From an uncultured virus (IMG/VR IMGVR_UViG_3300020337_000002) (lineage: Duplodnaviria; Heunggongvirae; Uroviricota; Caudoviricetes): a DNA stretch of 64,000 nt. Where the stretch lies: the IMG/VR virus record IMGVR_UViG_3300020337_000002. One strand, written 5' to 3'. Below the pieces are notes generated by a model, which was given only the letters and a program-made list of their open reading frames with translations, searched no databases and was not told the DNA's origin. A program made the position numbers and the translations under genes. Below, in pieces: positions 3,482 through 53,638 of this stretch. Position 1 is the first letter of the stretch. Every line of letters begins with the position of its first letter.

Positions 3482-4966
3482 TTAAACCTTCAAAAATACT
3501 TCGACTAGTTTTTCTTCTTCATCTTCTTTAGTTTCAAGTGCAATACCAATCATTTTACCGTCTTGTATAACTTGTGAACCTATACCATCAACGTTTGAAT
3601 AAATCGGCTCGCCTTTAAATGCTGGACCTACAACTCTTACTGGAACTTTACCTTTTAGTGCTACTGCTTGTCCTTCTGATTCAGCATTCATTAAGTATGC
3701 TGGTTTGTCGGATATAACACCTGTTGGTGTTCCAGCTAAATCACAAGCTATCATTTCACACTCAAACTCTCCATCTCTTAATGTAGGAATAGTCATAATA
3801 GTTCCTACTGGATGTTCTTGGTCAGTTGTGTATTTCTCTGCCAAGTCAGCGTATTGTGCCTGTGTAGCTGTACCTGTAAATAAGTTTGCTACTAAATTAC
3901 CTGATCCATCTCTAACTGCTACTGTGTTATTAGTTGCCGCTGTTGAGGCTGAACGATAATTTGCTCCAACGGCTAATGTTGAAGCCTGTGAAGCTGTACC
4001 ATTAAATGTTGTTGCATAAATTGTATTAAATTTAGTTCCTGCTTTACCTATATTGAATGTATTGTTTGTTGCAGGATGTAATCCTGTTGACTCAATAGTA
4101 AGTGCATGAGTGTTAGTACCTACTGAATCATCAACTTTAAATTCAATTTTAGTACCAACTTCATTTGAAATAACACCTTCGTTATCATTTTCAACATAAA
4201 TTTTAAGATCGTTTGAGTTACCAATTGAAATACCTGCGTCTGCAAAGCTAACAAGTGAAGTAAATGATCCTGATCCTGCTAATGCAAAGTCAGTAGCACT
4301 ATATCCGCCAAGTTTCAATGAGTTACTTGCTGTACCCCAGTAGTAATCTGTTGAACTTGTAACACCACCTGTTGCGTTTTGTGTATTTCTTAGGGTTAAT
4401 CCTTTTTTGATTACGTCAAATCCTGTAATTGCATTACTTGGATCTGTTGAATCAATAGTAAATGATACTGCACTAATAATATAAATTACTTCATCATTAA
4501 CAATGGCTTGAATGACTACTCTGTTTACACTAGTTGTATCACGTACTGAAACAGTTTTCATCTGTGTTACAGTAGTTCCTGAACCTTGTGGTCCAATTAG
4601 TACGTAACCTGTTCCGTTGTATGCGTATAATTGTTCGTTTGTGCTATCCCACCATAAATCACCAGTGGCTAAACCAGCCGGTTGTGTTGCACTTACTTCT
4701 GCTCCACCTGTTGTTCTAAACTTAGAACCATCATAAAATTTAAGTTTAGATGCTGTAGCATCAAACCAAATTTGCCCTGAAATTGCTTTAGGTGGTTGTG
4801 AAGTTCCGCTAAAGTTCTCTAGCAGATGTAAAAAATTCTCATTTTGTATTTCACCGTAACCAGCATAGTTTTTACCTACTAGCTTGATATCGGTAGTTTG
4901 GTCAACGGTACCATCTTCAACTGTTGTTAAAGTTACTCCGCTGTATCTATCTATAGTATATGCCAT
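3482..4966 (-). CDS. baseplate/tail fibre protein with C-terminal YADLAE (peptidase G2/chaperone-like) domain
   Basis: N-terminal module GKNYAGYGE..NENFLHLLENF..GQIWFD shared with the next two genes; C-terminal QYADLAEKY...VALKGKVPVRV. Confidence 0.65.
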   Translation of the reverse strand: MAYTIDRYSGVTLTTVEDGTVDQTTDIKLVGKNYAGYGEIQNENFLHLLENFSGTSQPPKAISGQIWFDATASKLKFYDGSKFRTTGGAEVSATQPAGLATGDLWWDSTNEQLYAYNGTGYVLIGPQGSGTTVTQMKTVSVRDTTSVNRVVIQAIVNDEVIYIISAVSFTIDSTDPSNAITGFDVIKKGLTLRNTQNATGGVTSSTDYYWGTASNSLKLGGYSATDFALAGSGSFTSLVSFADAGISIGNSNDLKIYVENDNEGVISNEVGTKIEFKVDDSVGTNTHALTIESTGLHPATNNTFNIGKAGTKFNTIYATTFNGTASQASTLAVGANYRSASTAATNNTVAVRDGSGNLVANLFTGTATQAQYADLAEKYTTDQEHPVGTIMTIPTLRDGEFECEMIACDLAGTPTGVISDKPAYLMNAESEGQAVALKGKVPVRVVGPAFKGEPIYSNVDGIGSQVIQDGKMIGIALETKEDEEEKLVEVFLKV

Positions 4967-34627: not shown

Positions 34628-35644
34628 TTGTTTAAGAAAGCGGCAGTATTTACAGACATACACTTTGGTTTGAAGTCAAACTCAAAGGTGCATAATGATG
34701 ACTGTGAAGAATTTATTGATTGGTATATAGAACAAGCAAAAGAAAACGGTTGTGAAACTGGAATATTTTGCGGTGACTGGCATCATAATCGAAACAGTCT
34801 AAACATTACTACCATGGATGCAACCATTAGAAGCCTTGAGAAACTAGGTAAGGCTTTTGAAAAGTTTTACTTCTTTCCTGGTAATCACGATTTATACTAC
34901 AAAGACAAAAGAGATATTAATTCCATCGACTTTGCAAGACACATTGAAGGCATTACAATGGTCAATGAGATGATGACCGAAGGTAACACTACTTTAATCC
35001 CTTGGTTAGTTGGTGATGAATGGAAAAAGATTCCTAAAATAAAAAGCAAATACATATTTGGTCACTTTGAACTTCCAAACTTTTATATGAATGCTATGGT
35101 ACAGATGCCTGACACGGGTGAACTACAAGCAGATCATTTCAAGAACCAAGAATATGTGTTTAGTGGTCACTTCCATAAGAGACAAGTAAAAGGTCCTGTT
35201 CATTATATAGGTAATGCTCTTCCTCACAATTACGCAGATGCCTGGGATGATGAACGTGGTATGATGATACTTGAAGATGGAGGTGAACCACAGTATATCA
35301 ACTGGTGGAACTGTCCTAAATATAGAACAGTAAAACTTTCCAGACTGTTAGATGAAAAAGATACACTAATAAAAAGTAAAATGTACCTACGTGTTACACT
35401 AGACTTGCCTATTAGTTATGAAGAAGCAAACTTTATCAAAGAAACTTTCATGAAAGACTATGAATGCAGAGAAATTTCTCTTATTCCTAACACACAGGAC
35501 GAAGAAATGAACTCAGACATAGATATTACGAAGTTTGAAAGTGTAGATGAGATTGTTGCAAAAGAAATTGAAGCTATCGAGTCGGATAGTTTTGATAAAA
35601 GCAAACTACTTTCAATATATAGAGATTTAAGCAAAGATGATTAA
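34628..35644 (+). CDS. gp47: Mre11/SbcD-like recombination nuclease subunit
   Basis: Metallophosphoesterase motifs DIH, GD, GNHD, GHFE and SGHFH. Confidence 0.92.
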   Translation: MFKKAAVFTDIHFGLKSNSKVHNDDCEEFIDWYIEQAKENGCETGIFCGDWHHNRNSLNITTMDATIRSLEKLGKAFEKFYFFPGNHDLYYKDKRDINSIDFARHIEGITMVNEMMTEGNTTLIPWLVGDEWKKIPKIKSKYIFGHFELPNFYMNAMVQMPDTGELQADHFKNQEYVFSGHFHKRQVKGPVHYIGNALPHNYADAWDDERGMMILEDGGEPQYINWWNCPKYRTVKLSRLLDEKDTLIKSKMYLRVTLDLPISYEEANFIKETFMKDYECREISLIPNTQDEEMNSDIDITKFESVDEIVAKEIEAIESDSFDKSKLLSIYRDLSKDD

Positions 35645-37409
35645 GATAAAAAGCCTTACAGTTAAGAATTTTATGAGTGTGGGTAACACTACACAGGGAG
35701 TAGACTTTAACAAACAACAACTAACGTTAGTGCTTGGCGAAAACTTAGATCAAGGAGGTGACGATTCTGGTTCACGTAACGGTACAGGTAAGACTACAAT
35801 TATTAATGCGTTGTCATATGCCCTGTACGGCCAAGCACTAACGAACATTAGAAGAGATAATTTAGTAAACAAGACCAACAACAAGGGTATGTTGGTTACA
35901 CTAGAGTTTGATAAAGATGGTAAACAATATCATATTGAAAGAGGACGTAAACCTAACACACTAAAATTTAAGATTGATAACAAGGAACAAGAGCTTACAG
36001 ATGAAAGCCAAGGTGATTCACGTAAGACACAGTTGGATATTAACAACCTACTAGGTATGAGTCATGATATGTTCAAGCATATTGTGGCACTTAATACGTA
36101 CACAGAGCCCTTCTTAGCACTCAAGAACAATGATCAACGTGCTATTATAGAACAACTGCTTGGTATTACACTACTTTCTGAGAAGGCAGAGTTGTTAAGA
36201 GAACAAATACGTATCAATAGAGATAAGCTAACCGAAGAAAATGCTAGAATAACAGCCGTTAAGGATAGCAACGAAAAGATCAAAGAGAATATTGAAAGAT
36301 TGCATAGTAGACGCAAGGCTTGGATTGCACAAAACAAACAGGACTGTGAGAAACTTGCAAAAGCAATCAAAGAACTTGAACAACTAGACATCGATCAAGA
36401 ACTAGAAGATCATGAGAAACTAGAAAAGTGGACTGAGAACAGTAAACATCTTACAAACCTAACAAAAGAAAAAGCAACTGTTGAACGTGCATTGGAACAA
36501 GCCGATAATAATGTAAACAAACTTGGTAAGGATCTTGATGATCTTGAAACTGCCAAGTGTTATGCTTGTGGACAAGACCTACATGATGACAAACTTGAAG
36601 AAATGAAAGACAAGCTACAAAAGGATTATGGTGATGCTCACATTTATCAAACTAGCATGGCAGAAAAAATGCAAAAGGTTGAAAAACTAATTGAAGACAT
36701 TGGTGACCTAGAGGCAAAACCAAATACCTTTTATGAAACAGCCAAAGAAGCATATCAACATAGAGGTAATGTTGAGAGCTTGACTAACAGTTTACGAGAA
36801 AAGACTGATGAACTTGATCCATATCAAGAACAAATTAAAGATTTAGAAGATACTGCAATACAAGAAGTGACTTGGGATACTGTAAACGATCTTAACAGTA
36901 CTAAAGAACATCAAGACTTCTTATATAAACTATTAACTAACAAAGATAGCTTTATACGTAAGAAGATCATCGATCAGAACCTTGCATACTTGAATAATAG
37001 ACTTACATACTACTTAGACAAGCTAGGACTTCCGCATACAGTGGTGTTTAAGAACGATCTAAGTGTTGAGATTACGCAACTAGGACAGGATCTAGACTTT
37101 GATAACCTAAGTAGAGGTGAACGTAATAGACTTATACTTGGTATGAGTTGGAGTTTCCGTGATGTATGGGAAAGTCTATATCAAAACATCAACTTATTGT
37201 TTATTGACGAATTAGTTGATAGTGGTATGGATGCAAATGGTGTTGAAAACAGTATGAGCATACTTAAGAAGATGGGTAGAGAACGTCAAAAGAACATTTA
37301 TCTTATATCGCACAAAGAAGAACTAGCAAGTCGTGTAACAAACGTACTAAAAGTTATAAAAGAAAACGGATTTACATCTTATGACAATGATGTAGAGATA
37401 ATGCAATGA
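35637..37409 (+). CDS. gp46: Rad50/SbcC-like recombination ATPase subunit
   Basis: Walker A NGTGKTT, coiled coil with CYAC zinc hook, LSRGE signature, Walker B FIDE, ISH. Confidence 0.95.
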   Translation: MIKIKSLTVKNFMSVGNTTQGVDFNKQQLTLVLGENLDQGGDDSGSRNGTGKTTIINALSYALYGQALTNIRRDNLVNKTNNKGMLVTLEFDKDGKQYHIERGRKPNTLKFKIDNKEQELTDESQGDSRKTQLDINNLLGMSHDMFKHIVALNTYTEPFLALKNNDQRAIIEQLLGITLLSEKAELLREQIRINRDKLTEENARITAVKDSNEKIKENIERLHSRRKAWIAQNKQDCEKLAKAIKELEQLDIDQELEDHEKLEKWTENSKHLTNLTKEKATVERALEQADNNVNKLGKDLDDLETAKCYACGQDLHDDKLEEMKDKLQKDYGDAHIYQTSMAEKMQKVEKLIEDIGDLEAKPNTFYETAKEAYQHRGNVESLTNSLREKTDELDPYQEQIKDLEDTAIQEVTWDTVNDLNSTKEHQDFLYKLLTNKDSFIRKKIIDQNLAYLNNRLTYYLDKLGLPHTVVFKNDLSVEITQLGQDLDFDNLSRGERNRLILGMSWSFRDVWESLYQNINLLFIDELVDSGMDANGVENSMSILKKMGRERQKNIYLISHKEELASRVTNVLKVIKENGFTSYDNDVEIMQ

Positions 37410-37410
37410 T

Positions 37411-37815
37411 ATGATACTAGATAAGATCAAAGAACGTGGTGAGGAAATGGCTCCTTTAGAAGGACATGACCGATTACAGTACTTGGTTGATCTAGCAAGA
37501 GAAGTAGAACCATTAAGTGCCGAAGATAAAATAGACGAAAACAAAATAAGAGGGTGTGCAAGTAATTTGTGGGTAGTAGGTAAGATGAATAAAGACGGAA
37601 CAATGTCTTATAGACACGACGGAGATGCTTGGATTACAAAAGGTACTGCAAAAGTAATAGTTGATCTAGTAAACGGTGCACACAGAAGCGAGATTGCACA
37701 CCTTACAATAGAAAGTTTCCAAGGATTAGGGATAAGAGAGTTACTAACCATGCAGAGACAAGTGGGGTTTGGCAGTTTAATTGAACGTATTATAGGTATA
37801 GCAAAACATGGATGA
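37411..37815 (+). CDS. sufE: SufE-family sulfur acceptor protein
   Basis: RLQYLVDLA, NKIRGCASNLW (active Cys), DGDAWITKG and LT.QR..GF match the SufE pattern. Confidence 0.85.
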   Translation: MILDKIKERGEEMAPLEGHDRLQYLVDLAREVEPLSAEDKIDENKIRGCASNLWVVGKMNKDGTMSYRHDGDAWITKGTAKVIVDLVNGAHRSEIAHLTIESFQGLGIRELLTMQRQVGFGSLIERIIGIAKHG

Positions 37816-38014
37816 TACACACGATAAATTAACCAAAGCATACTTGGAATATTTCAAAGCCAACGAGGCTTGGGAAGTACGCAAGAGTGAACGTACTAAA
37901 AGATCCTCAAGAAAATGGTTAAGTGAGATACGTAGACTGTGTACAGAACGTAGAAAAGAAATAATAGAAGAGTACAAAGCCAAAAATGGTAGCCCTAGCG
38001 ATGATACTGAGTAA
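37808..38014 (+). CDS. small basic hypothetical protein
   Basis: 68 aa, overlaps the sufE stop codon, helical and basic. Confidence 0.7.
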   Translation: MDDTHDKLTKAYLEYFKANEAWEVRKSERTKRSSRKWLSEIRRLCTERRKEIIEEYKAKNGSPSDDTE

Positions 38015-38022
38015 GTATCACT

Positions 38023-38445
38023 ATGCAATGGACATATCAGGGTAAAAAAGTAGACGAGCTACCAGAAGACTGCGAAGCATTTGTTTACTTAATCACAAAT
38101 ACAACCAACAATCGTAAATACGTCGGCAAAAAACTAGCTAAATTCAAAAAGACTAGGCCACCTCTGAAGGGTAGGATAAACAAACGTAGAAGCAAAGTAG
38201 AATCAGACTGGAGAGACTATTGGGGCTCCTCAGATCAACTACAAGAAGACGTGAACCAGATAGGCGAAGACAAATTTACAAGAGAGATATTATACTATTG
38301 TCCAAGTAGAGGCGTAGCAAGTTATTTAGAGGCAAGAGAACAGTTCGAAAGAAGAGTCCTAGAGAAGGACGAGTATTACAATGGTATCATCAACGTCAGA
38401 GTAGGCGGATCCAAAATATTACGTGAAGCATTAAAAGGCAAATAA
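38023..38445 (+). CDS. small GIY-YIG superfamily (Seg-like) endonuclease
   Basis: AFVYLITN..N.RKYVGKK, YWGSS, YLEAREQ and YYN motifs; catalytic domain only. A TAAGTA box at 38012-38017 lies just upstream. Confidence 0.75.
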   Translation: MQWTYQGKKVDELPEDCEAFVYLITNTTNNRKYVGKKLAKFKKTRPPLKGRINKRRSKVESDWRDYWGSSDQLQEDVNQIGEDKFTREILYYCPSRGVASYLEAREQFERRVLEKDEYYNGIINVRVGGSKILREALKGK

Positions 38446-38461
38446 CATAACAACATTGTTT

Positions 38462-38815
38462 GGTCGGGGTAGCTCGACCCGTATTGAGGTCACGAAGTAT
38501 GACCGGAACTTACGAGTTGTAAGGGTAAGCTAACTAAAGGCTTAAAAGATGTGGCTCTGTGAAACAGATACAACCACAGCATTAATATATTTTGCTTAAC
38601 AAGGGTATATTGGTGTTCCGAAACTATGCGAAGGCTAGGGTAGGGAGTTGGCGGGTTTCCGCTTCCGTACATATTATAATGTAATCCTTTTTGTTAAGAT
38701 GGTAATTCTCATCTCACATGATGTAACCAATCTTTGCCCGGAGACGGGCGAAGTATGGCTCAACTATCTACATGATGCAAAGTGCTAACGCACTAATTGT
38801 TATCACATACAATAA
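38462..38815 (+). ncRNA. candidate large structured ncRNA, family unassigned
   Basis: About ten consecutive stems with G-U pairs on the + strand, a GAGA tetraloop and a loop-to-downstream pairing CTTAACAA/TTGTTAAG; no convincing ORF. Confidence 0.6.
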
Positions 38816-38841
38816 AATTGTTTGAGTGTTAACGAAAACAA

Positions 38842-38861
38842 AGTTGAGCTTTAGCTCAACT
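38842..38861. terminator. inverted repeat between convergent units
   Basis: AGTTGAGCT-TT-AGCTCAACT perfect inverted repeat next to the stop of 38863..39057; T-rich run follows on the minus strand. Confidence 0.55.
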
Positions 38862-38862
38862 A

Positions 38863-39057
38863 CTAATGCAGTTCCGGATCGCGTCCGTAACGAAATGCAT
38901 CACTATCGTATACAGCAACTTCTTCCACTTTATATTCTTTTTGTGGATTAGCGTCCTTTAACTGTTGTACTGTGAGATCAGCTTCAAGCTCGTCACTGCA
39001 TTGAGTTAAGGGTTCAGAGTTGCCTATCTCAAAAACATTATATCTCGTCTGAGGCAT
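38863..39057 (-). CDS. small acidic hypothetical protein
   Basis: 64 aa with a minus-strand TAAATA box at 39063-39068. Confidence 0.65.
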   Translation of the reverse strand: MPQTRYNVFEIGNSEPLTQCSDELEADLTVQQLKDANPQKEYKVEEVAVYDSDAFRYGRDPELH

Positions 39058-39091
39058 AAGAGTATTTACGGGGTATGTTCGATGAATTATG

Positions 39092-39099
39092 TATAAATA
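39092..39099 (+). promoter_or_regulatory. T4 late promoter consensus TATAAATA
   Basis: Exact consensus followed by AGGAG RBS and ATG 39122. Confidence 0.8.
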
Positions 39100-39121
39100 T
39101 AAAGTAACAGGAGACTAAACC

Positions 39122-39695: not shown

Positions 39696-42002
39696 ATGAA
39701 GTTAGGCGAAGTTACAAACTATAATTTAAAATCACAAACAATACTAGCAGAAGGCTGGCAGGATCTTAACGAAGCACAACGTATATACGTTGGCAAATGG
39801 GAAAGAGAAGTTTGGCCATTAGTAGAAGGCATTAACAAACTTTTTGAAGCTGAACTTACTGCTAAACAGATTGATGGCATCTTTGGTAATGCAGAACAAG
39901 TTGCTATGGATAGTGGTGATAATAAAACTGCACTTGGTAAAGCGGGTGGAGTTGTAGGTGACCAAGCTAAAAAATTACAAACACAAATTGACCAATTACT
40001 TAAGGCCGCACAAGATAGCGGACCTGTTAAAAACTTTGACGCACAATTTGAAAAACTTAAAGCACAATTAAAAACAAAACTTGAAGGCAATCCAATGGGT
40101 CAAAAGATCCTTAAGACTGTCGAAGGTTACGGAGACTTTGCAAAAGGAAATCCAGCCAAGGCGGCTTTTGTTATTGGAGCAATGACTTCAGTACTTGCAT
40201 TTGCAAGTGGTGGTATTGTTTCAGGTGCGGCAATTGGTTTCTTTTTAAAATTAGCTAACAATACATTAAAAGGCGATAAACTTTCAACAGCAGTTGCTAA
40301 AGGTGTTAAAGGCGCGGCAATTGGTGCACTTGCAGGTGCATTAGGCGATGCGATGGGAGATGCTGAAGCATCTGAACTGATACCTGGAGTTGATGCAGAT
40401 GAAGCCGCTGAGGTTAGTTCAACAATGGACGGTGATGAAGTTGAAGCCGCGGTTGGTGCCGATGCTGATGCTGATGGCGGAGGTGAAACTCCTGAACTTC
40501 CTGATGTTGACGAATTCAAAGAAAATTATATTAGAGGAATGATTGAGAAAGGTAGATTTGCCAATCAAGAGTTTACTGACGGCATGGTCCAAAAGATGGC
40601 CAACGAAGTTAATATAGTAGGAACATATCCAGATGATATCCAAGGCGTAGACTTTAAAGGTACTATTGTTAAAGGAAACATTTATCTTACTCCGGAAGAA
40701 CAAGCAGACTTTAGTGCTTACTTAAAATCACAGCCTGGAAGTGATATGGCTAAGATAATGAGTAAAGAAACTGATGAGTGGTTAAGTGCGAATGTTAGTG
40801 AAGCAGATAACACATTTCAAGTAAGAGATGATGCATTTGCGGCCAAGCAGGCGGCCATTGAAGCAGATAAAGTATTAGATGCGGCTGAAGTTGAAGGAAT
40901 GGCTGAAACAGATATCCAAGCCAGAATGAACGAGATCCAGAAATCAACTAATCCAGTTACTGGAGGAAAAATTGATGTTGAGAATGGTAAAGATGCACTA
41001 GCAAGAGAGTATAGACAACTTCAAAATGAACTTAATCGTAGAGAAGAATTAAACTTTTCAGGTGCAACAACAGATCCAACAGGACTTATACAAGAGTATA
41101 CAGATTACCTAGACGACACAATGGTTGAAGGGCCAGTTCTTGACAAAATGAAAGCACTTGCTAAATCAGGTGCAGTAGCAGTTGGCAAGGGCATGGATAA
41201 AGCAGGTGAAAAAGTTGCAGGTGGAATTAGCAAAGCCGGAGCCGCAGTTAAAGGTGCAGGTAAACAACTTGGAAATAAAATTACAAAAGAAAAATTAATG
41301 AAGTCTTGGACTAAGATGGGCAAACCAACTGACCTAGGATCAATAACAAACATATTAAGCGATGCAGGGTTATCAGATGAGTCAATAGGTACAGTTGCAA
41401 CTAACACAAAGGTTCCTTTAAAACCTACAGCAAAACCAGACGCAGGTGAAGAAGATCCTAAAGCACCAACACCGGGAGGAGCAACAGCTAAACCAGGAGC
41501 AGAACCAACTGACACTGATGCAGTTGCTAAAGGAGTTGATGCAAACAAAGATGGTAAAGATGACAAGACAGGTAAAGTAATTCAGATGCCCGGCACGACA
41601 CCAGCTGACGGAGTTGACGCTCCTAAGAGTGGAATAGCAAAAGGTGCCGCAGGTGCAAGTGCACCAGCAGGTGATAAGAGTATTAAAGTTACAGGAATGC
41701 CTGGACAAGGTTCAGGAGGTTCAACAACTTCAACAACTGGAACTAAACCAGGTGCAACAGCAAAACCTAAAGCAGGTGCAACAGCAGGTGCAGGTGCAAA
41801 AGTTGATATTCCGGCACTAGCTAAACAAATAAGTGATGCAGGAATAGGTGCTGAGATAAAAGGTCAGCTTACAGGACAGGGTGGCGGAAGTGATCTTGGA
41901 TCAGGAATGCAAATTGATATACCTACACTAGCACAAAAGATTAGTGATGCTGGTATGCAACAACAAATTAAACAACAACTTTCACAAAAACAAACAGCCT
42001 AA
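39696..42002 (+). CDS. putative internal/ejection protein with hydrophobic Gly-zipper segments
   Basis: MKLGEV...DLNE leader, hydrophobic AAFVIGAMTSVLAFASGGIVSGAAIGFFL, acidic middle and duplicated C-terminal motif. Confidence 0.45.
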   Translation: MKLGEVTNYNLKSQTILAEGWQDLNEAQRIYVGKWEREVWPLVEGINKLFEAELTAKQIDGIFGNAEQVAMDSGDNKTALGKAGGVVGDQAKKLQTQIDQLLKAAQDSGPVKNFDAQFEKLKAQLKTKLEGNPMGQKILKTVEGYGDFAKGNPAKAAFVIGAMTSVLAFASGGIVSGAAIGFFLKLANNTLKGDKLSTAVAKGVKGAAIGALAGALGDAMGDAEASELIPGVDADEAAEVSSTMDGDEVEAAVGADADADGGGETPELPDVDEFKENYIRGMIEKGRFANQEFTDGMVQKMANEVNIVGTYPDDIQGVDFKGTIVKGNIYLTPEEQADFSAYLKSQPGSDMAKIMSKETDEWLSANVSEADNTFQVRDDAFAAKQAAIEADKVLDAAEVEGMAETDIQARMNEIQKSTNPVTGGKIDVENGKDALAREYRQLQNELNRREELNFSGATTDPTGLIQEYTDYLDDTMVEGPVLDKMKALAKSGAVAVGKGMDKAGEKVAGGISKAGAAVKGAGKQLGNKITKEKLMKSWTKMGKPTDLGSITNILSDAGLSDESIGTVATNTKVPLKPTAKPDAGEEDPKAPTPGGATAKPGAEPTDTDAVAKGVDANKDGKDDKTGKVIQMPGTTPADGVDAPKSGIAKGAAGASAPAGDKSIKVTGMPGQGSGGSTTSTTGTKPGATAKPKAGATAGAGAKVDIPALAKQISDAGIGAEIKGQLTGQGGGSDLGSGMQIDIPTLAQKISDAGMQQQIKQQLSQKQTA

Positions 42003-52536: not shown

Positions 52537-52571
52537 TCCATAGGGTTAGTTACTTAATGTAACAAAGTATT

Positions 52572-52601
52572 AGAAAGGCCCTTCGGGGCCTTTCTTTTTT
52601 T
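52572..52601 (+). terminator. intrinsic terminator after the capsid gene
   Basis: AGAAAGGCCC-TTCG-GGGCCTTTCT followed by a T run. Confidence 0.92.
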
Positions 52602-52645
52602 ATGGATATTCTTTCTATTTTGGTAAACCTTTTTGCATTTTCTGG

Positions 52646-52674
52646 TTGCTTTTTGTAACTAGAGGTGCTATATT
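52646..52674 (+). promoter_or_regulatory. sigma70-type extended -10 promoter
   Basis: TTGCTT, 17-nt spacer, TATATT with TG-n directly upstream; predicted start near A52681. Confidence 0.7.
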
Positions 52675-52680
52675 AGTAAC

Positions 52681-52897
52681 ATAAGCATTAGTAGAGTAAT
52701 TAACTACTAATTATAGTGCAAGGAAGAGGCTCCTACCAAAAGAGTCGAACTTGACGGTCCAGGGGTGGTACCCAGGGTTTGTAGTAGAAATACGCAGGCT
52801 CACATCGCACTAACCCGCGGGGATCGGTTGTACGGTTTAGAAATGGTATTTCGGTCCGTGCTTGTAGGTGTACCCAAGTCCTACCTATTTTGCTTAT
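52681..52897 (+). ncRNA. candidate ~217-nt structured ncRNA, family unassigned
   Basis: Ends pair (ATAAGCA/TGCTTAT), nested stems, GAAA tetraloop, own promoter, no ORF with RBS. Confidence 0.65.
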
Positions 52898-52924
52898 ACT
52901 TTCTTTCCCCATTCCCAAAACTTT

Positions 52925-53010
52925 GATAAATACTTGTGTCTATAGAGCGAGTCGCCATACAGCGGCGGACTTATGCGGAATACCATCCGCGTAGACCTAG
53001 AACGTCAAAG
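52925..53010 (+). promoter_or_regulatory. late promoter box plus structured 5' leader
   Basis: GATAAATA at 52925-52932, hairpins at 52950-52971 and 52972-52993, then AAGGAG RBS. Confidence 0.55.
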
Positions 53011-53020
53011 GAGAAACAAA

Positions 53021-53638
53021 ATGGGAAGACCAATTAATAAAAAACACATTGGTGATGGAGCAGGTAAAATCCAAGTAACTGCGGTTAAATTCGCGGCAGG
53101 TGGAGAAATTACTACTGAGTCACACATTGTGAATCAAAGATCAGCAAATAAATTTACTGTTACAGACGGAAGTAAAACTGAAGTATGTACACTTGTTAAC
53201 AAGTCAATCGGTGGTTTAGGTGCTAGTGAATTTTGTATCAACGTTACAGACAGTGATGGTGTTACAAAACAAGTAACTAAAATGTTCAACAGAAAAATGC
53301 AACTTGAAGGAGCAACTAGACATAAATGGGCTAGAAACTCTGCAGGTGCATCTACGGCAGTTGAGAAAGTTATTTCAGGTGCTACAGCGGCAGATCCAGT
53401 TGTTATTACAGCAACAGGACACGGCTTCAGCAACGGAGATAAAGTATCTATCCGTGGCGTAGTTGGAATGGTTGAGCTTAACACTGAAACTGCATATACA
53501 GTGGCAAACAAAGCAACTAACACATTTGAATTATCAGGTGTTGACGGTAGTGGCTTTACTGCATACGGTAGTGCTGGAGTGGCAACTAAAGCGGCGGCTG
53601 AAGCTGGCGGCATTGTTGTTGACGCACAGGCATCGTAA
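53021..53638 (+). CDS. virion structural protein with E1-FCCH-like beta domain (possible head decoration)
   Basis: Start revised to ATG 53021 (AAGGAG RBS); ISGATAADPVVITATGHGFSNGDKV.I.GV.GM.ELN...Y motif. Confidence 0.6.
   Translation: MGRPINKKHIGDGAGKIQVTAVKFAAGGEITTESHIVNQRSANKFTVTDGSKTEVCTLVNKSIGGLGASEFCINVTDSDGVTKQVTKMFNRKMQLEGATRHKWARNSAGASTAVEKVISGATAADPVVITATGHGFSNGDKVSIRGVVGMVELNTETAYTVANKATNTFELSGVDGSGFTAYGSAGVATKAAAEAGGIVVDAQAS

What the first reader, a model, noticed from the sequence alone, without database searches (positions are those of the whole stretch)
38023..38861. Minimal GIY-YIG nuclease directly followed by a ~400-nt multi-stem, pseudoknotted non-coding region: candidate nuclease-RNA system
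Seen: after the stop at 38445 the + strand folds into back-to-back stems at 38462-38479, 38488-38504, 38509-38523, 38526-38544, 38551-38577, 38578-38617, 38640-38670, 38732-38753 (GAGA loop) and 38781-38794. The loop CTTAACAA (38595-38602) is complementary to TTGTTAAG (38691-38698). The many G-U pairs favour a + strand RNA. It is one of the two largest non-coding gaps in the window, and no terminator separates it from the nuclease gene. The 140-aa protein has a catalytic domain with a basic insert (KFKKTRPPLKGRINKRRSK) but no appended DNA-binding domain. Known: compact nucleases with adjacent large RNAs occur in IscB/HEARO and TnpB systems. Inference: a ribonucleoprotein, possibly RNA-guided. 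Alternatives are an independent phage ncRNA or a replication origin/packaging site.
Basis: partly seen in the sequence, partly recalled or inferred. Interest (0 to 1): 0.82.

Follow-up and report, generated by a model that had tools for sequence, protein, structure and literature searches.

The report
New pseudoknotted RNA beside phage nuclease
A roughly 415-base, intricately folded RNA that matches no catalogued RNA family lies directly after a small DNA-cutting enzyme gene in abundant uncultured marine phages, but nothing yet shows that the two work together.

Summary
Window 38446-38862 (+) is non-coding and encodes a conserved, covarying RNA. On 41 distinct homologues my 102-pair model is 89.4% paired (slid controls 37-48%), and 58 pairs change on both sides (controls 7-21). 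A second pseudoknot was found.

No Rfam family, tRNA or tmRNA matches.

ORF 38023-38445 is a stand-alone GIY-YIG catalytic domain: Pfam SegE_GIY-YIG 5.8e-35, fold nearest to I-TevI at Z 8.3.

RNA and nuclease are always adjacent: 75 of 75 loci picked by an RNA motif, 66 of 66 picked by the upstream Rad50-like gene. All of these share one syntenic block, so adjacency is not independent evidence of partnership. The nuclease family, basic insert included, also occurs without the RNA in phage Melnitz, in cyanophages and beside nrdB. No guide-like variable end was seen.

Best reading: a new family of large structured phage RNA made at the 3' end of the nuclease operon, function unknown. A nuclease-RNA complex is neither supported nor excluded.

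The parts
38023..38445 (+). 140-aa stand-alone GIY-YIG nuclease (SegE-like catalytic domain, no DNA-binding domain)
   Evidence: Pfam PF19835 SegE_GIY-YIG 5.8e-35 over profile positions 1-123 of 123. PHROG 447, 2.5e-37. AlphaFold2 model with mean pLDDT 96. Best folds: I-TevI catalytic domain Z 8.3, PD-T4-3 Z 7.1, UvrC GIY-YIG Z 5.7, T4 EndoII Z 5.6. Invariant Y22, Y33, G35, K37, E103 and N120 in 45 relatives.
38446..38862 (+). Whole structured non-coding RNA (type A), 417 nt
   Evidence: Fold z -5.0. Covariation on 41 sequences. Non-coding: only 75 of 953 gap runs are multiples of three, and there is no 3-base periodicity. No Rfam, tRNA or tmRNA match.
38450..38520 (+). 5' three-way-junction domain: P1 38450-54/38516-20, P2 hairpin 38462-68/38473-79, P3 38480-83/38511-14, P3a 38488-92/38500-04
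   Evidence: helices 1-4: 90-99.5% paired. Pairs changing on both sides: 2 of 5, 3 of 7, 4 of 4 and 4 of 5.
38527..38543 (+). P4 hairpin with conserved CUAAC-containing loop
   Evidence: helix 5: 3 of 5 pairs change on both sides, 84% paired.
38551..38577 (+). P5 stem enclosing the near-invariant loop GCUCUGWGAAAAAG..CAAC
   Evidence: helix 6: 100% paired, 3 of 4 pairs change on both sides.
38580..38615 (+). P6 hairpin, whose loop 38595-38601 forms pseudoknot A
   Evidence: helix 7. The upper six pairs (38588-93/38602-07) are well supported. The lower eight are poorly paired in the alignment.
38595..38698 (+).
   Evidence: helix 8: 97.2% paired, 6 of 7 pairs change on both sides.
38620..38659 (+). 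Pseudoknot B: 38620-38625 pairs with the loop of P8 at 38654-38659
   Evidence: helix 9: 100% paired, 4 of 6 pairs change on both sides.
38637..38689 (+). P7 (38637-40/38686-89) enclosing P8 (38643-48/38661-66) and P9 (38668-72/38679-83)
   Evidence: helices 10-13: 95-100% paired. P7 has 4 of 4 pairs changing on both sides.
38713..38723 (+). Box 1, CUCACAUGAUG
   Evidence: Its last 8 nt equal those of box 2 in 72 of 75 sequences where both boxes were found, across five lineage variants.
38732..38753 (+). P10 hairpin with a GNRA-type loop (GAGA here, GCAA in others)
   Evidence: helix 14: 98% paired. Mostly invariant or changed on one side only.
38768..38777 (+). Box 2, CUACAUGAUG, inside the most conserved stretch UGGCUCAACUAUCUACAUGAUG
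   Evidence: Used as the search motif.
38781..38794 (+). P11 hairpin (UUCG loop in most relatives)
   Evidence: Covaries by eye: AGUGC/GCACU, GUUGC/GCAAC, AUUGC/GCAAU. The formal count was poor because the alignment is shifted there (helix 15).
38818..38841 (+). P12 stem with the conserved loop GAGYGNNARCGA, which holds a 2-bp mini-hairpin. Shared by RNA types A and B.
   Evidence: helix 16 (86% paired).
38842..38861 (+). P13 terminal hairpin. Terminator-like for the convergent minus-strand ORF; there is no U-run on the + strand.
   Evidence: minus-strand terminator-like site 38861-38842. helix 17: 6 of 8 pairs change on both sides.
37808..38014 (+). 68-aa basic ORF upstream of the nuclease. 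Part of the conserved block, no family match.
34628..37409 (+). Mre11-like (gp47-type) and Rad50-like (gp46-type) recombination nuclease genes that head the same-strand block
   Evidence: Pfam Metallophos, AAA_23 and a sub-threshold Rad50_zn_hook match (E 0.0018, 18.5 bits against cut-off 24.3). Synteny.
38863..39057 (-). Convergent 64-aa ORF whose end abuts the RNA's terminal hairpin

Best explanation
Window 38446-38862 encodes a real, + strand, roughly 415-nt non-coding RNA of a family that no current catalogue holds.

Shown: it has at least a dozen covarying helices and two pseudoknots. It has GNRA- and UNCG-type hairpin loops and long invariant single-stranded stretches.

Inferred: it is made as the tail of the same-strand block Mre11-like, Rad50-like, (SufE), 68-aa ORF, GIY-YIG nuclease, because there is no room for a promoter and no terminator before it. 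It ends at the hairpin 38842-38861.

Inferred, my commitment: it acts as a folded RNA in its own right, as a compact tertiary scaffold. Its two co-evolving 8-nt boxes (38716-38723 and 38770-38777) are paired recognition sites for one partner that differs between phage lineages, whether a protein dimer, a repeated site or copies of the RNA itself. It does not act as a guide for the nuclease.

The neighbouring nuclease is a conserved stand-alone GIY-YIG enzyme. Its family works without this RNA in other phages. Their adjacency here is a fixed gene order of one lineage of abundant, uncultured, probably very large marine phages.
For: Structure: 89.4% paired, 58 of 102 pairs compensatory, slid controls far lower. 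G-U 446 against A-C 76 cells. Fold z -5.0.

Non-coding.

New family: no Rfam match at the gathering score in the window or in 20 related loci, none at E up to 10 or 5 in the type A or type B regions other than chance snoRNA-like rows, and no tRNA or tmRNA. No blastn match in 50,697 phage records.

Fixed block: 72 of 81 nuclease-picked loci have the RNA; 75 of 75 RNA-motif-picked loci with room have the nuclease 305-390 nt upstream; 66 of 66 Rad50-like-picked loci with room have nuclease then RNA.

Nuclease without the RNA: Melnitz at 73% identity, with a 148-nt gap; cyanophage Bellamy, followed by tRNAs; 35 loci at 38-68% identity, 21 of them with an nrdB match upstream of the nuclease, with no downstream RNA-profile match (two weak opposite-strand rows ~2 kb upstream only). 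The covariance model R1 finds nothing in the Melnitz or cyanophage loci. The basic insert is also present in Melnitz.

Two RNA body types follow nucleases about 80% identical, and both types are structured.

Boxes identical in 72 of 75 sequences, in five variants.

RNA-library contigs span the whole RNA in 2 of the 4 runs laid (X1, X5).
Against: No natural case separates RNA from nuclease inside the lineage (66 of 66), so a functional tie cannot be ruled out.

The function is entirely inferred; no assay was possible.

Expression rests on assembled contigs from RNA libraries. These cannot show strand, ends or freedom from DNA, and 2 of the 4 runs laid covered the nuclease gene but not the RNA body.

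The 3' third of the fold is unsolved. The candidate helices 38697-703/38763-69 and 38457-61/38824-28 are compatible (88% and 100% paired) but show no change on both sides.

One of the five covariation measures did not beat the shuffles.

The sequences are related, so counts of cells overstate the number of independent events.

The supplementary lists of a paper reporting over ten thousand candidate viral RNAs could not be searched fully, so 'uncatalogued' applies to Rfam 15 and to my searches only.
Confidence: 0.55

Rival explanations
1. Nuclease-RNA partnership. The RNA binds the GIY-YIG enzyme and guides, activates or restrains it, for example as an RNA inhibitor that keeps a toxic DNA nuclease quiet until needed, or as a targeting cofactor.
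For: The two are strictly adjacent on the same strand with no terminator between them. The nuclease has no DNA-binding domain and has a basic beta-hairpin insert. The nuclease is more conserved than the Rad50-like neighbour: 76-100% against 51-100% identity across the loci.
Against: All cases lie in one syntenic block, so adjacency counts as one event. The family, with its insert, works without the RNA in Melnitz, in cyanophages and in nrdB-linked loci. RNA body types A and B differ strongly behind similar nucleases. No hypervariable end was seen. I recall no GIY-YIG enzyme known to use an RNA.
Confidence: 0.2
2. A cis-acting 3' untranslated region. The fold only stabilises or terminates the operon transcript and buffers convergent transcription from the 64-aa minus-strand gene.
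For: It sits at the end of the operon, ends in a hairpin shared with the convergent gene, and has no promoter-sized gap before it.
Against: About 415 nt, two pseudoknots, GNRA loops and long invariant single strands conserved down to about 63% overall identity are far more than a stabiliser needs. In two of the four RNA libraries laid, single contigs cover the RNA with only 42-48 nt of the nuclease gene's 3' end (X5: 38404-38925; X1: 38398 to beyond 39100).
Confidence: 0.15
3. A very divergent member of a known class: two-piece tmRNA (as in phage Melnitz), RNase P RNA, a group I intron or another large catalogued RNA.
For: Related marine myophages carry a two-piece tmRNA (PMC9004378, passages read). 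The RNA is pseudoknot-rich and of similar size.
Against: ARAGORN found no tmRNA or tRNA. No Rfam family reached even E 1 apart from chance snoRNA-like rows. I saw no tRNA-like end, no tag reading frame and no split host gene around it. The Melnitz tmRNA lies elsewhere, at gene 86.
Confidence: 0.05
4. A DNA-level element (replication origin, packaging site or nuclease target), not an RNA.
For: The two direct-repeat boxes change in the same direction, as protein-bound DNA sites would.
Against: 446 G-U cells against 76 A-C cells, and compensatory changes that keep RNA-type pairs, point to selection on a + strand RNA fold.
Confidence: 0.03

Closest known systems
IscB with omega RNA (HEARO) and TnpB with its guide RNA
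   Same: A compact nuclease gene has a large structured RNA next to it on the same strand.
   Different: The nuclease here is GIY-YIG, not RuvC/HNH. There is no HEARO or other Rfam match. No transposon ends and no variable guide end were seen. The gene order is fixed synteny. The nuclease family occurs without the RNA.
Large ornate RNAs of unknown function, often phage-linked: GOLLD, ROOL, OLE (PMC12286853, abstract seen in the listings; the rest recalled)
   Same: Large, many helices, pseudoknots, strongly conserved single strands, carried by phages, no known function.
   Different: No covariance-model match to any of them. About 415 nt, which by recall is shorter than GOLLD or ROOL. No tRNA genes in this 64-kb window. 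Oligomer formation is untested.
T4 Seg endonucleases and the I-TevI catalytic domain (GIY-YIG homing endonucleases)
   Same: Pfam SegE_GIY-YIG 5.8e-35. The best structural match is the I-TevI catalytic domain: Z 8.3, rmsd 2.6 over 82 residues.
   Different: Only the catalytic domain is present: 140 aa, and most relatives are 135-150 aa. It is present in every locus of the lineage that could be checked and is better conserved than the Rad50-like gene, unlike a sporadic selfish gene.
T4 endonuclease II (DenA; size and gene position recalled)
   Same: A small stand-alone GIY-YIG enzyme. In Melnitz, Bellamy and 21 of 35 distant loci the homologue follows nrdB, which is where I recall denA lying in T4. 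Fold match to 2wsh: Z 5.6.
   Different: No sequence match to the PDB, even with a 45-sequence profile. The fold is closer to I-TevI. In this window the gene lies after the Rad50-like gene, not after nrdB.
Two-piece tmRNA of phage Melnitz (PMC9004378)
   Same: A large pseudoknotted RNA carried by a marine myophage whose nuclease is the closest isolate homologue (73% identity).
   Different: It has a different locus in Melnitz. There is no ARAGORN or Rfam tmRNA match here.

Membership tests
IscB/HEARO or TnpB-type RNA-guided nuclease system | Nuclease with a RuvC (and HNH) fold | tested here: not met
   Pfam SegE_GIY-YIG; the top folds are all GIY-YIG.
IscB/HEARO or TnpB-type RNA-guided nuclease system | RNA matches HEARO or another described guide-RNA family | tested here: not met
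   No Rfam match at the gathering score in the window or in 20 loci, and none at E up to 10 in the region.
IscB/HEARO or TnpB-type RNA-guided nuclease system | Variable guide segment at one end of a conserved scaffold; mobile element ends | tested here: not met
   Both ends of the RNA are conserved (P1 region and P12/P13). The variable parts are internal hairpins and an AU-rich linker. The locus is in fixed synteny.
IscB/HEARO or TnpB-type RNA-guided nuclease system | Protein binds the RNA and cleavage depends on it | not testable with these tools
   Needs biochemistry.
GIY-YIG nuclease superfamily | GIY...YIG motifs with the conserved Glu and Asn; GIY-YIG fold | tested here: met
   Invariant Y22, Y33, G35, E103 and N120 in 45 relatives. 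Pfam match. Fold Z 8.3 to I-TevI.
Seg-type or I-TevI-type homing endonuclease | C-terminal DNA-binding domain joined to the catalytic domain | tested here: not met
   The protein is 140 aa and the Pfam domain covers residues 3-123. Relatives are mostly 135-150 aa. The stretch downstream shows no coding signal.
Seg-type or I-TevI-type homing endonuclease | Sporadic, selfish distribution among related genomes | tested here: not met
   78 of 80 Rad50-like-picked loci have it; the two without have under 300 nt of DNA after that gene.
T4 endonuclease II (DenA) | Detectable sequence or closest structural similarity to EndoII | tested here: inconclusive
   No PDB sequence match. 2wsh scores Z 5.6, below I-TevI at Z 8.3. 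The nrdB-adjacent position holds in relatives only.
tmRNA (one- or two-piece) | tRNA-like domain, tag reading frame, match to tmRNA models | tested here: not met
   ARAGORN found 0 genes. No Rfam tmRNA family at E up to 10.
Group I intron | Interrupts a host gene; match to the intron model | tested here: not met
   No split gene: the next gene is on the other strand. No Rfam match.
GOLLD / ROOL / OLE / raiA large RNAs | Match to the family's covariance model | tested here: not met
Type III toxin-antitoxin (nuclease plus repeated RNA; recalled) | Tandem repeats of a short RNA unit next to an endoribonuclease toxin | tested here: not met
   No tandem array by eye in the alignment: a single complex fold; no repeat-finding tool was run. 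The protein has a DNA-nuclease fold. Only two 8-nt boxes repeat.

The most novel reading that the evidence does not exclude
The RNA is the obligate partner of the minimal GIY-YIG enzyme. The lineage moved the nuclease from its ancestral place beside nrdB and gave it a large RNA that supplies the nucleic-acid recognition that the missing DNA-binding domain would have given, with the two co-evolving boxes setting specificity. That would be the first RNA-dependent GIY-YIG nuclease.
Probability: 0.12. Interest if true: 0.92.

Novelty: categorically new. Interest (0 to 1): 0.72.

Why it matters
Large RNAs with many helices and pseudoknots are rare. By recall, those whose roles became known turned out to be ribozymes or cores of ribonucleoproteins.

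This one has no relative in Rfam 15. It is carried by phages that are common in ocean data: the exact nuclease protein was seen on 318 contigs, and parts of the locus are held by 15 RNA runs (the 22 holder rows of all kinds come from 11 studies). The phages are uncultured and probably very large: the nearest record is 104 kb and is estimated to be 30% complete.

The RNA offers a clean new target for structure determination and for asking what large phage RNAs do. If it does work with the neighbouring minimal GIY-YIG enzyme, that would open a new class of RNA-dependent nucleases. The parallel evolution of its two boxes is a concrete handle for finding its partner.

The label 'categorically new' refers to the RNA family. 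As a kind of thing, a large phage RNA of unknown function, it has precedents.

Tried and rejected
- **Known RNA families.** Rfam at gathering score on the window and on 20 loci, and at E-value on the type A and type B regions. Only chance rows appeared, for example SNORD105 at 17.5 bits, E 1.1, caused by the UGAUG box.
- **tRNA or tmRNA.** None.
- **Isolate phages.** blastn found no match to the RNA. The covariance model R1 found nothing in the Melnitz, Bellamy or S-SRM01 loci.
- **Decayed coding sequence.** I asked whether the gap is the remnant of a lost C-terminal domain. There is no frame signal, and gap runs are mostly not multiples of three.
- **Own assembly.** Not held.
- **EndoII identity by sequence.** None.
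- **Antisense target for the boxes.** The complement CATCATGT occurs 4 times in the window against 2.98 expected by chance. Two of the four are the boxes themselves and none is on the + strand.
- **Pairing between the two boxes.** Rejected, because they change in the same direction, not as complements.
- **Extra helices.** 38697-703/38763-69 and 38457-61/38824-28 are compatible but have no change on both sides. A hairpin at 38711-14/38720-23 counted 35% paired, possibly because of misalignment.
- **Gaps after distant nuclease homologues.** By eye they look protein-coding (no frame or coding test was run), not RNA.
- **Literature.** Four searches found no description of this RNA. Of the supplements of PMC10690425, three files could not be searched, and the rest did not contain the motif.
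- **Earlier findings of this scan.** Nothing by place or by sequence.
- **Reads.** Runs X2 and X12 gave no cover over the RNA body, which proves nothing.
Full report
**What is there.** The window is a stretch of an uncultured marine phage. On the + strand lie, in order:
- an Mre11-like gene (34628-35644)
- a Rad50-like gene (35637-37409)
- a SufE-like gene (37411-37815)
- a 68-aa basic ORF (37808-38014)
- the 140-aa ORF of the finding (38023-38445)

After that comes 417 nt without a credible ORF, up to a convergent 64-aa ORF on the minus strand at 38863-39057.

The Rad50-like protein is at most 48.5% identical to any isolate. The best matches are Pseudomonas jumbo phages of the PA5oct group. 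The nearest held virus record is 104 kb and is estimated to be 30% complete. A very large genome is therefore likely.

**Check of the observation.**
- The + strand of 38446-38862 folds to -129.8 kcal/mol, z -5.0 against dinucleotide shuffles. The minus strand gives z -4.0.
- I collected relatives (see the linkage section) and aligned 41 distinct copies that are 63-99% identical to the window's copy.
- I wrote a structure of 102 pairs in 17 helices from column covariation and counted it with the tool:
  - 89.4% of cells are paired, against 36.6-47.5% with slid partners.
  - 58 pairs have changes on both sides, against 7-21.
  - The covariation score is 0.402, against 0.054-0.122.
  - No shuffle in 500 reached the observed value for four measures. 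The fifth, further pair types, was not above the shuffles (119 against 127.5).
- Because the sequences are related, cells do not count independent events. The slid controls keep relatedness, however, and they are far lower.
- The stem at 38509-38523 is not supported: 72% paired, with the middle pair failing in 37 of 41 sequences. It clashes with two covarying helices.
- A second pseudoknot joins 38620-38625 to the loop of the 38643-38666 hairpin. It is 100% paired and 4 of 6 pairs change on both sides.
- G-U pairs outnumber A-C 446 to 76, which sets the strand as +.

**It is not coding.**
- The longest stop-free runs differ in strand and frame between copies.
- Only 75 of 953 alignment gap runs are multiples of three.
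- Variability by phase is flat: 0.208, 0.191, 0.210.

**Linkage with the nuclease.**
- Picked by the nuclease (80 loci at 76-100% identity, plus Melnitz), 72 of 81 loci matched a profile of the RNA directly after the stop codon.
  - Four of the nine misses have under 320 nt of DNA after the gene.
  - Three belong to a second RNA type.
  - L075 and Melnitz have room but no recognisable RNA.
- Picked by a 22-nt RNA motif, 119 loci came back and 75 had at least 760 nt upstream. All 75 carry the nuclease on the same strand, ending 305-390 nt before the motif. The other 44 lacked the DNA needed to tell.
- Picked by the Rad50-like gene alone, 80 loci came back.
  - 78 show the nuclease; the two without have under 300 nt after that gene.
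  - 66 have a whole nuclease and at least 300 nt beyond it.
  - 66 of those 66 have the RNA starting within 400 nt.

The pair is therefore never separated. Every case, however, lies in the same gene order, which makes this one conserved block rather than many independent associations.

**The nuclease family elsewhere.**
- In phage Melnitz the homologue (73% identity) follows the ribonucleotide reductase genes and a small ORF. It is followed by a 148-nt gap and then small genes.
- In cyanophage Bellamy it follows nrdA, nrdB and a small ORF, and is followed by a tRNA cluster.
- Of 35 further loci at 38-68% identity, 21 have an nrdB match upstream of the nuclease (one more has it downstream). None matched either RNA profile downstream of the nuclease; two had weak opposite-strand type B rows (E about 3e-4) some 2 kb upstream. 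The stretches after the gene look protein-coding.
- The covariance model of the central domain (R1) found nothing in the Melnitz or cyanophage loci.
It is a family trait and is not tied to the RNA.

**What the protein is.**
- Pfam SegE_GIY-YIG at 5.8e-35, covering the whole 123-position profile.
- PHROG 447, whose label 'NAD synthetase' looks wrong.
- A search of 1.84 billion representatives found 2037 relatives, and most of the 150 listed are 135-150 aa.
- A 45-sequence alignment keeps Y22, Y33, G35, K37, Y66, S69, E103 and N120 invariant.
- The model has mean pLDDT 96.
- Foldseek ranked the I-TevI catalytic domain first (E 0.03, probability 1.0).
- The wide structural search gave I-TevI Z 8.3, PD-T4-3 Z 7.1, the UvrC GIY-YIG domain Z 5.7 and T4 EndoII Z 5.6.
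- No PDB chain matched by sequence, not even with the profile.

It is thus a stand-alone GIY-YIG catalytic domain. Across the loci it is better conserved (76-100%) than the Rad50-like gene (51-100%), and it is present wherever it could be checked. That does not fit a selfish homing endonuclease. Its position beside nrdB in relatives recalls T4 denA (recalled), but membership is not established.

**What the RNA is not.**
- No Rfam 15 family reaches its gathering score in the window (other than freshwater-2 at 52951-53023) or in 20 related loci.
- At E up to 10 the region gives only chance rows. A type B copy gives none at E up to 5.
- ARAGORN finds no tRNA or tmRNA.
- blastn finds nothing in 50,697 phage records.
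- The two-piece tmRNA reported for Melnitz lies at another locus (PMC9004378, passages read).
- Four literature searches found no description.
- A paper listing over ten thousand candidate viral RNAs does not mention GIY-YIG in its text. Its searchable supplements lack the motif, but three files could not be searched.

**Anatomy.**
- A 5' three-way junction (38450-38520).
- A hairpin with a CUAAC loop (38527-38543).
- A stem around a near-invariant purine-rich loop (38551-38577).
- A central double-pseudoknot core (38580-38698).
- A 3' third with:
  - a GNRA-looped hairpin (38732-38753)
  - a UNCG- or UAAC-looped hairpin (38781-38794)
  - a stem whose loop GAGYGNNARCGA holds a 2-bp mini-hairpin (38818-38841)
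  - a terminal hairpin (38842-38861) that scores as a terminator only for the minus strand
- The longest invariant run is UGGCUCAACUAUCUACAUGAUG.
- Two boxes, 38713-38723 and 38768-38777, share their last 8 nt. Among 96 distinct downstream sequences my pattern found both boxes in 75, and in 72 of these the 8-mers are identical. There are five lineage variants: ACAUGAUG in 35, GCAUGAUG in 23, ACAUGAAG in 8, AGAUAAUG in 5 and ACAUAAAG in 1. The pattern missed one or both boxes in 21 sequences, among them copies whose second box ends in AUA.
- The change is parallel, not complementary, so the boxes do not pair with each other. I found no complementary site in the window. This remains unexplained.

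**The family is mosaic.** Clustering 95 distinct downstream stretches gave:
- type A: 65, including the window
- type B: 21
- two clusters of 3
- three singletons, of which Melnitz is one

Type B has a different 5' and central body but shares the boxes, the UUCG hairpin, the GAGCG..GCGA stem-loop and the terminal hairpin. A subgroup combines a type-A-like 5' hairpin with the type B body. On 12 type B copies RNAalifold predicts 86 pairs, 28 of them with compensatory change. R1 finds the type A core weakly (E 2e-6 to 1e-3) in the two small clusters and not in type B.

**Expression.**
- Fifteen runs on record as RNA hold part of 37800-39100; the 22 holder rows of all kinds come from 11 studies. 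All named ones are labelled marine or seawater.
- Four runs from four studies were laid, all as assembled contigs:
  - X5, an oligo-dT library, has a single 521-nt contig over 38404-38925.
  - X1 has a contig from 38398 to beyond 39100.
  - X2 and X12 cover the nuclease gene up to 38481 and 38446.
- Contigs cannot show strand, true ends or freedom from DNA. This is only a hint that the region is present in RNA preparations. Two contigs starting at 38398 and 38404 in two studies are a weak hint of an end there.

**Explanation.**
- Shown: a conserved, + strand, pseudoknotted RNA fold; its fixed place after the nuclease; its absence beside the same nuclease family elsewhere; no match to any known family.
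- Inferred: it is co-transcribed with the operon, and it has a function of its own that uses the two boxes as paired recognition sites.
- I put 0.55 on an independent structured RNA, 0.20 on a real nuclease-RNA partnership, 0.15 on a purely cis-acting 3' end, 0.05 on a divergent known class and 0.03 on a DNA element.

**Limits.**
- No binding or activity test was possible.
- The 3' third of the fold is unsolved.
- The helix counts use an alignment that I partly tuned by eye.
- P11 and the lower part of P6 counted poorly.
- Statements about IscB/HEARO, TnpB, denA, GOLLD and ROOL beyond the abstracts listed are recalled, not tested.

Noticed in passing
window 52951-53023 (+), with the ORF-poor stretch 52537-52972 before it: An Rfam freshwater-2 RNA match (RF02980) at 52.5 bits against a gathering score of 49.9, ending in AAGGAGAAACAAAAUG. 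The second large ORF-free gap of the window lies just upstream of it.
   Followed up: no
window 37411-37815 (+): A SufE-like Fe-S assembly gene (Pfam SufE, 1.2e-27) sits between the Rad50-like gene and the 68-aa ORF. It matched in only 7 of the 80 nuclease-picked viral-contig loci, one of them weakly (32%) and some of them placed elsewhere, so it is an accessory insert.
   Followed up: partly
window 38023-38445 compared with 35637-37409, across loci L002-L081: The small nuclease is better conserved (76-100% identity) than the Rad50-like recombination protein (51-100%) in the same loci.
   Followed up: partly
L001 (Melnitz) 4442-4490: Just after the Melnitz nuclease stop, the sequence CAUAGCAAC...GUUGU resembles the first and last strands of the RNA's 5' domain (P1) with the interior missing. 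It may be a remnant or chance.
   Followed up: no
loci L059, L061, L062, L067, L069, L072, L081, downstream of the nuclease: These RNAs are mosaic: a type-A-like 5' hairpin domain joined to a type-B body. This suggests recombination between RNA types.
   Followed up: partly
window 39696-42002 (+): A 768-aa protein rich in Ala, Gly and Lys, with long low-complexity runs. It was not searched against any family library. It is conserved in part of the related loci.
   Followed up: no
window 35637-37409; record G001: The nearest isolates for the Rad50-like protein are Pseudomonas jumbo phages (PA5oct group, 48.5%) and a 469-kb Sinorhizobium phage. The nearest virus record is 104 kb and is estimated to be 30% complete. 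The phage is probably a jumbo phage rather than a typical T4-like cyanophage relative.
   Followed up: partly
PHROG 447 and many GenBank phage records: Homologues of this GIY-YIG protein are widely annotated as 'NAD synthetase', which neither the Pfam match nor the fold supports.
   Followed up: partly
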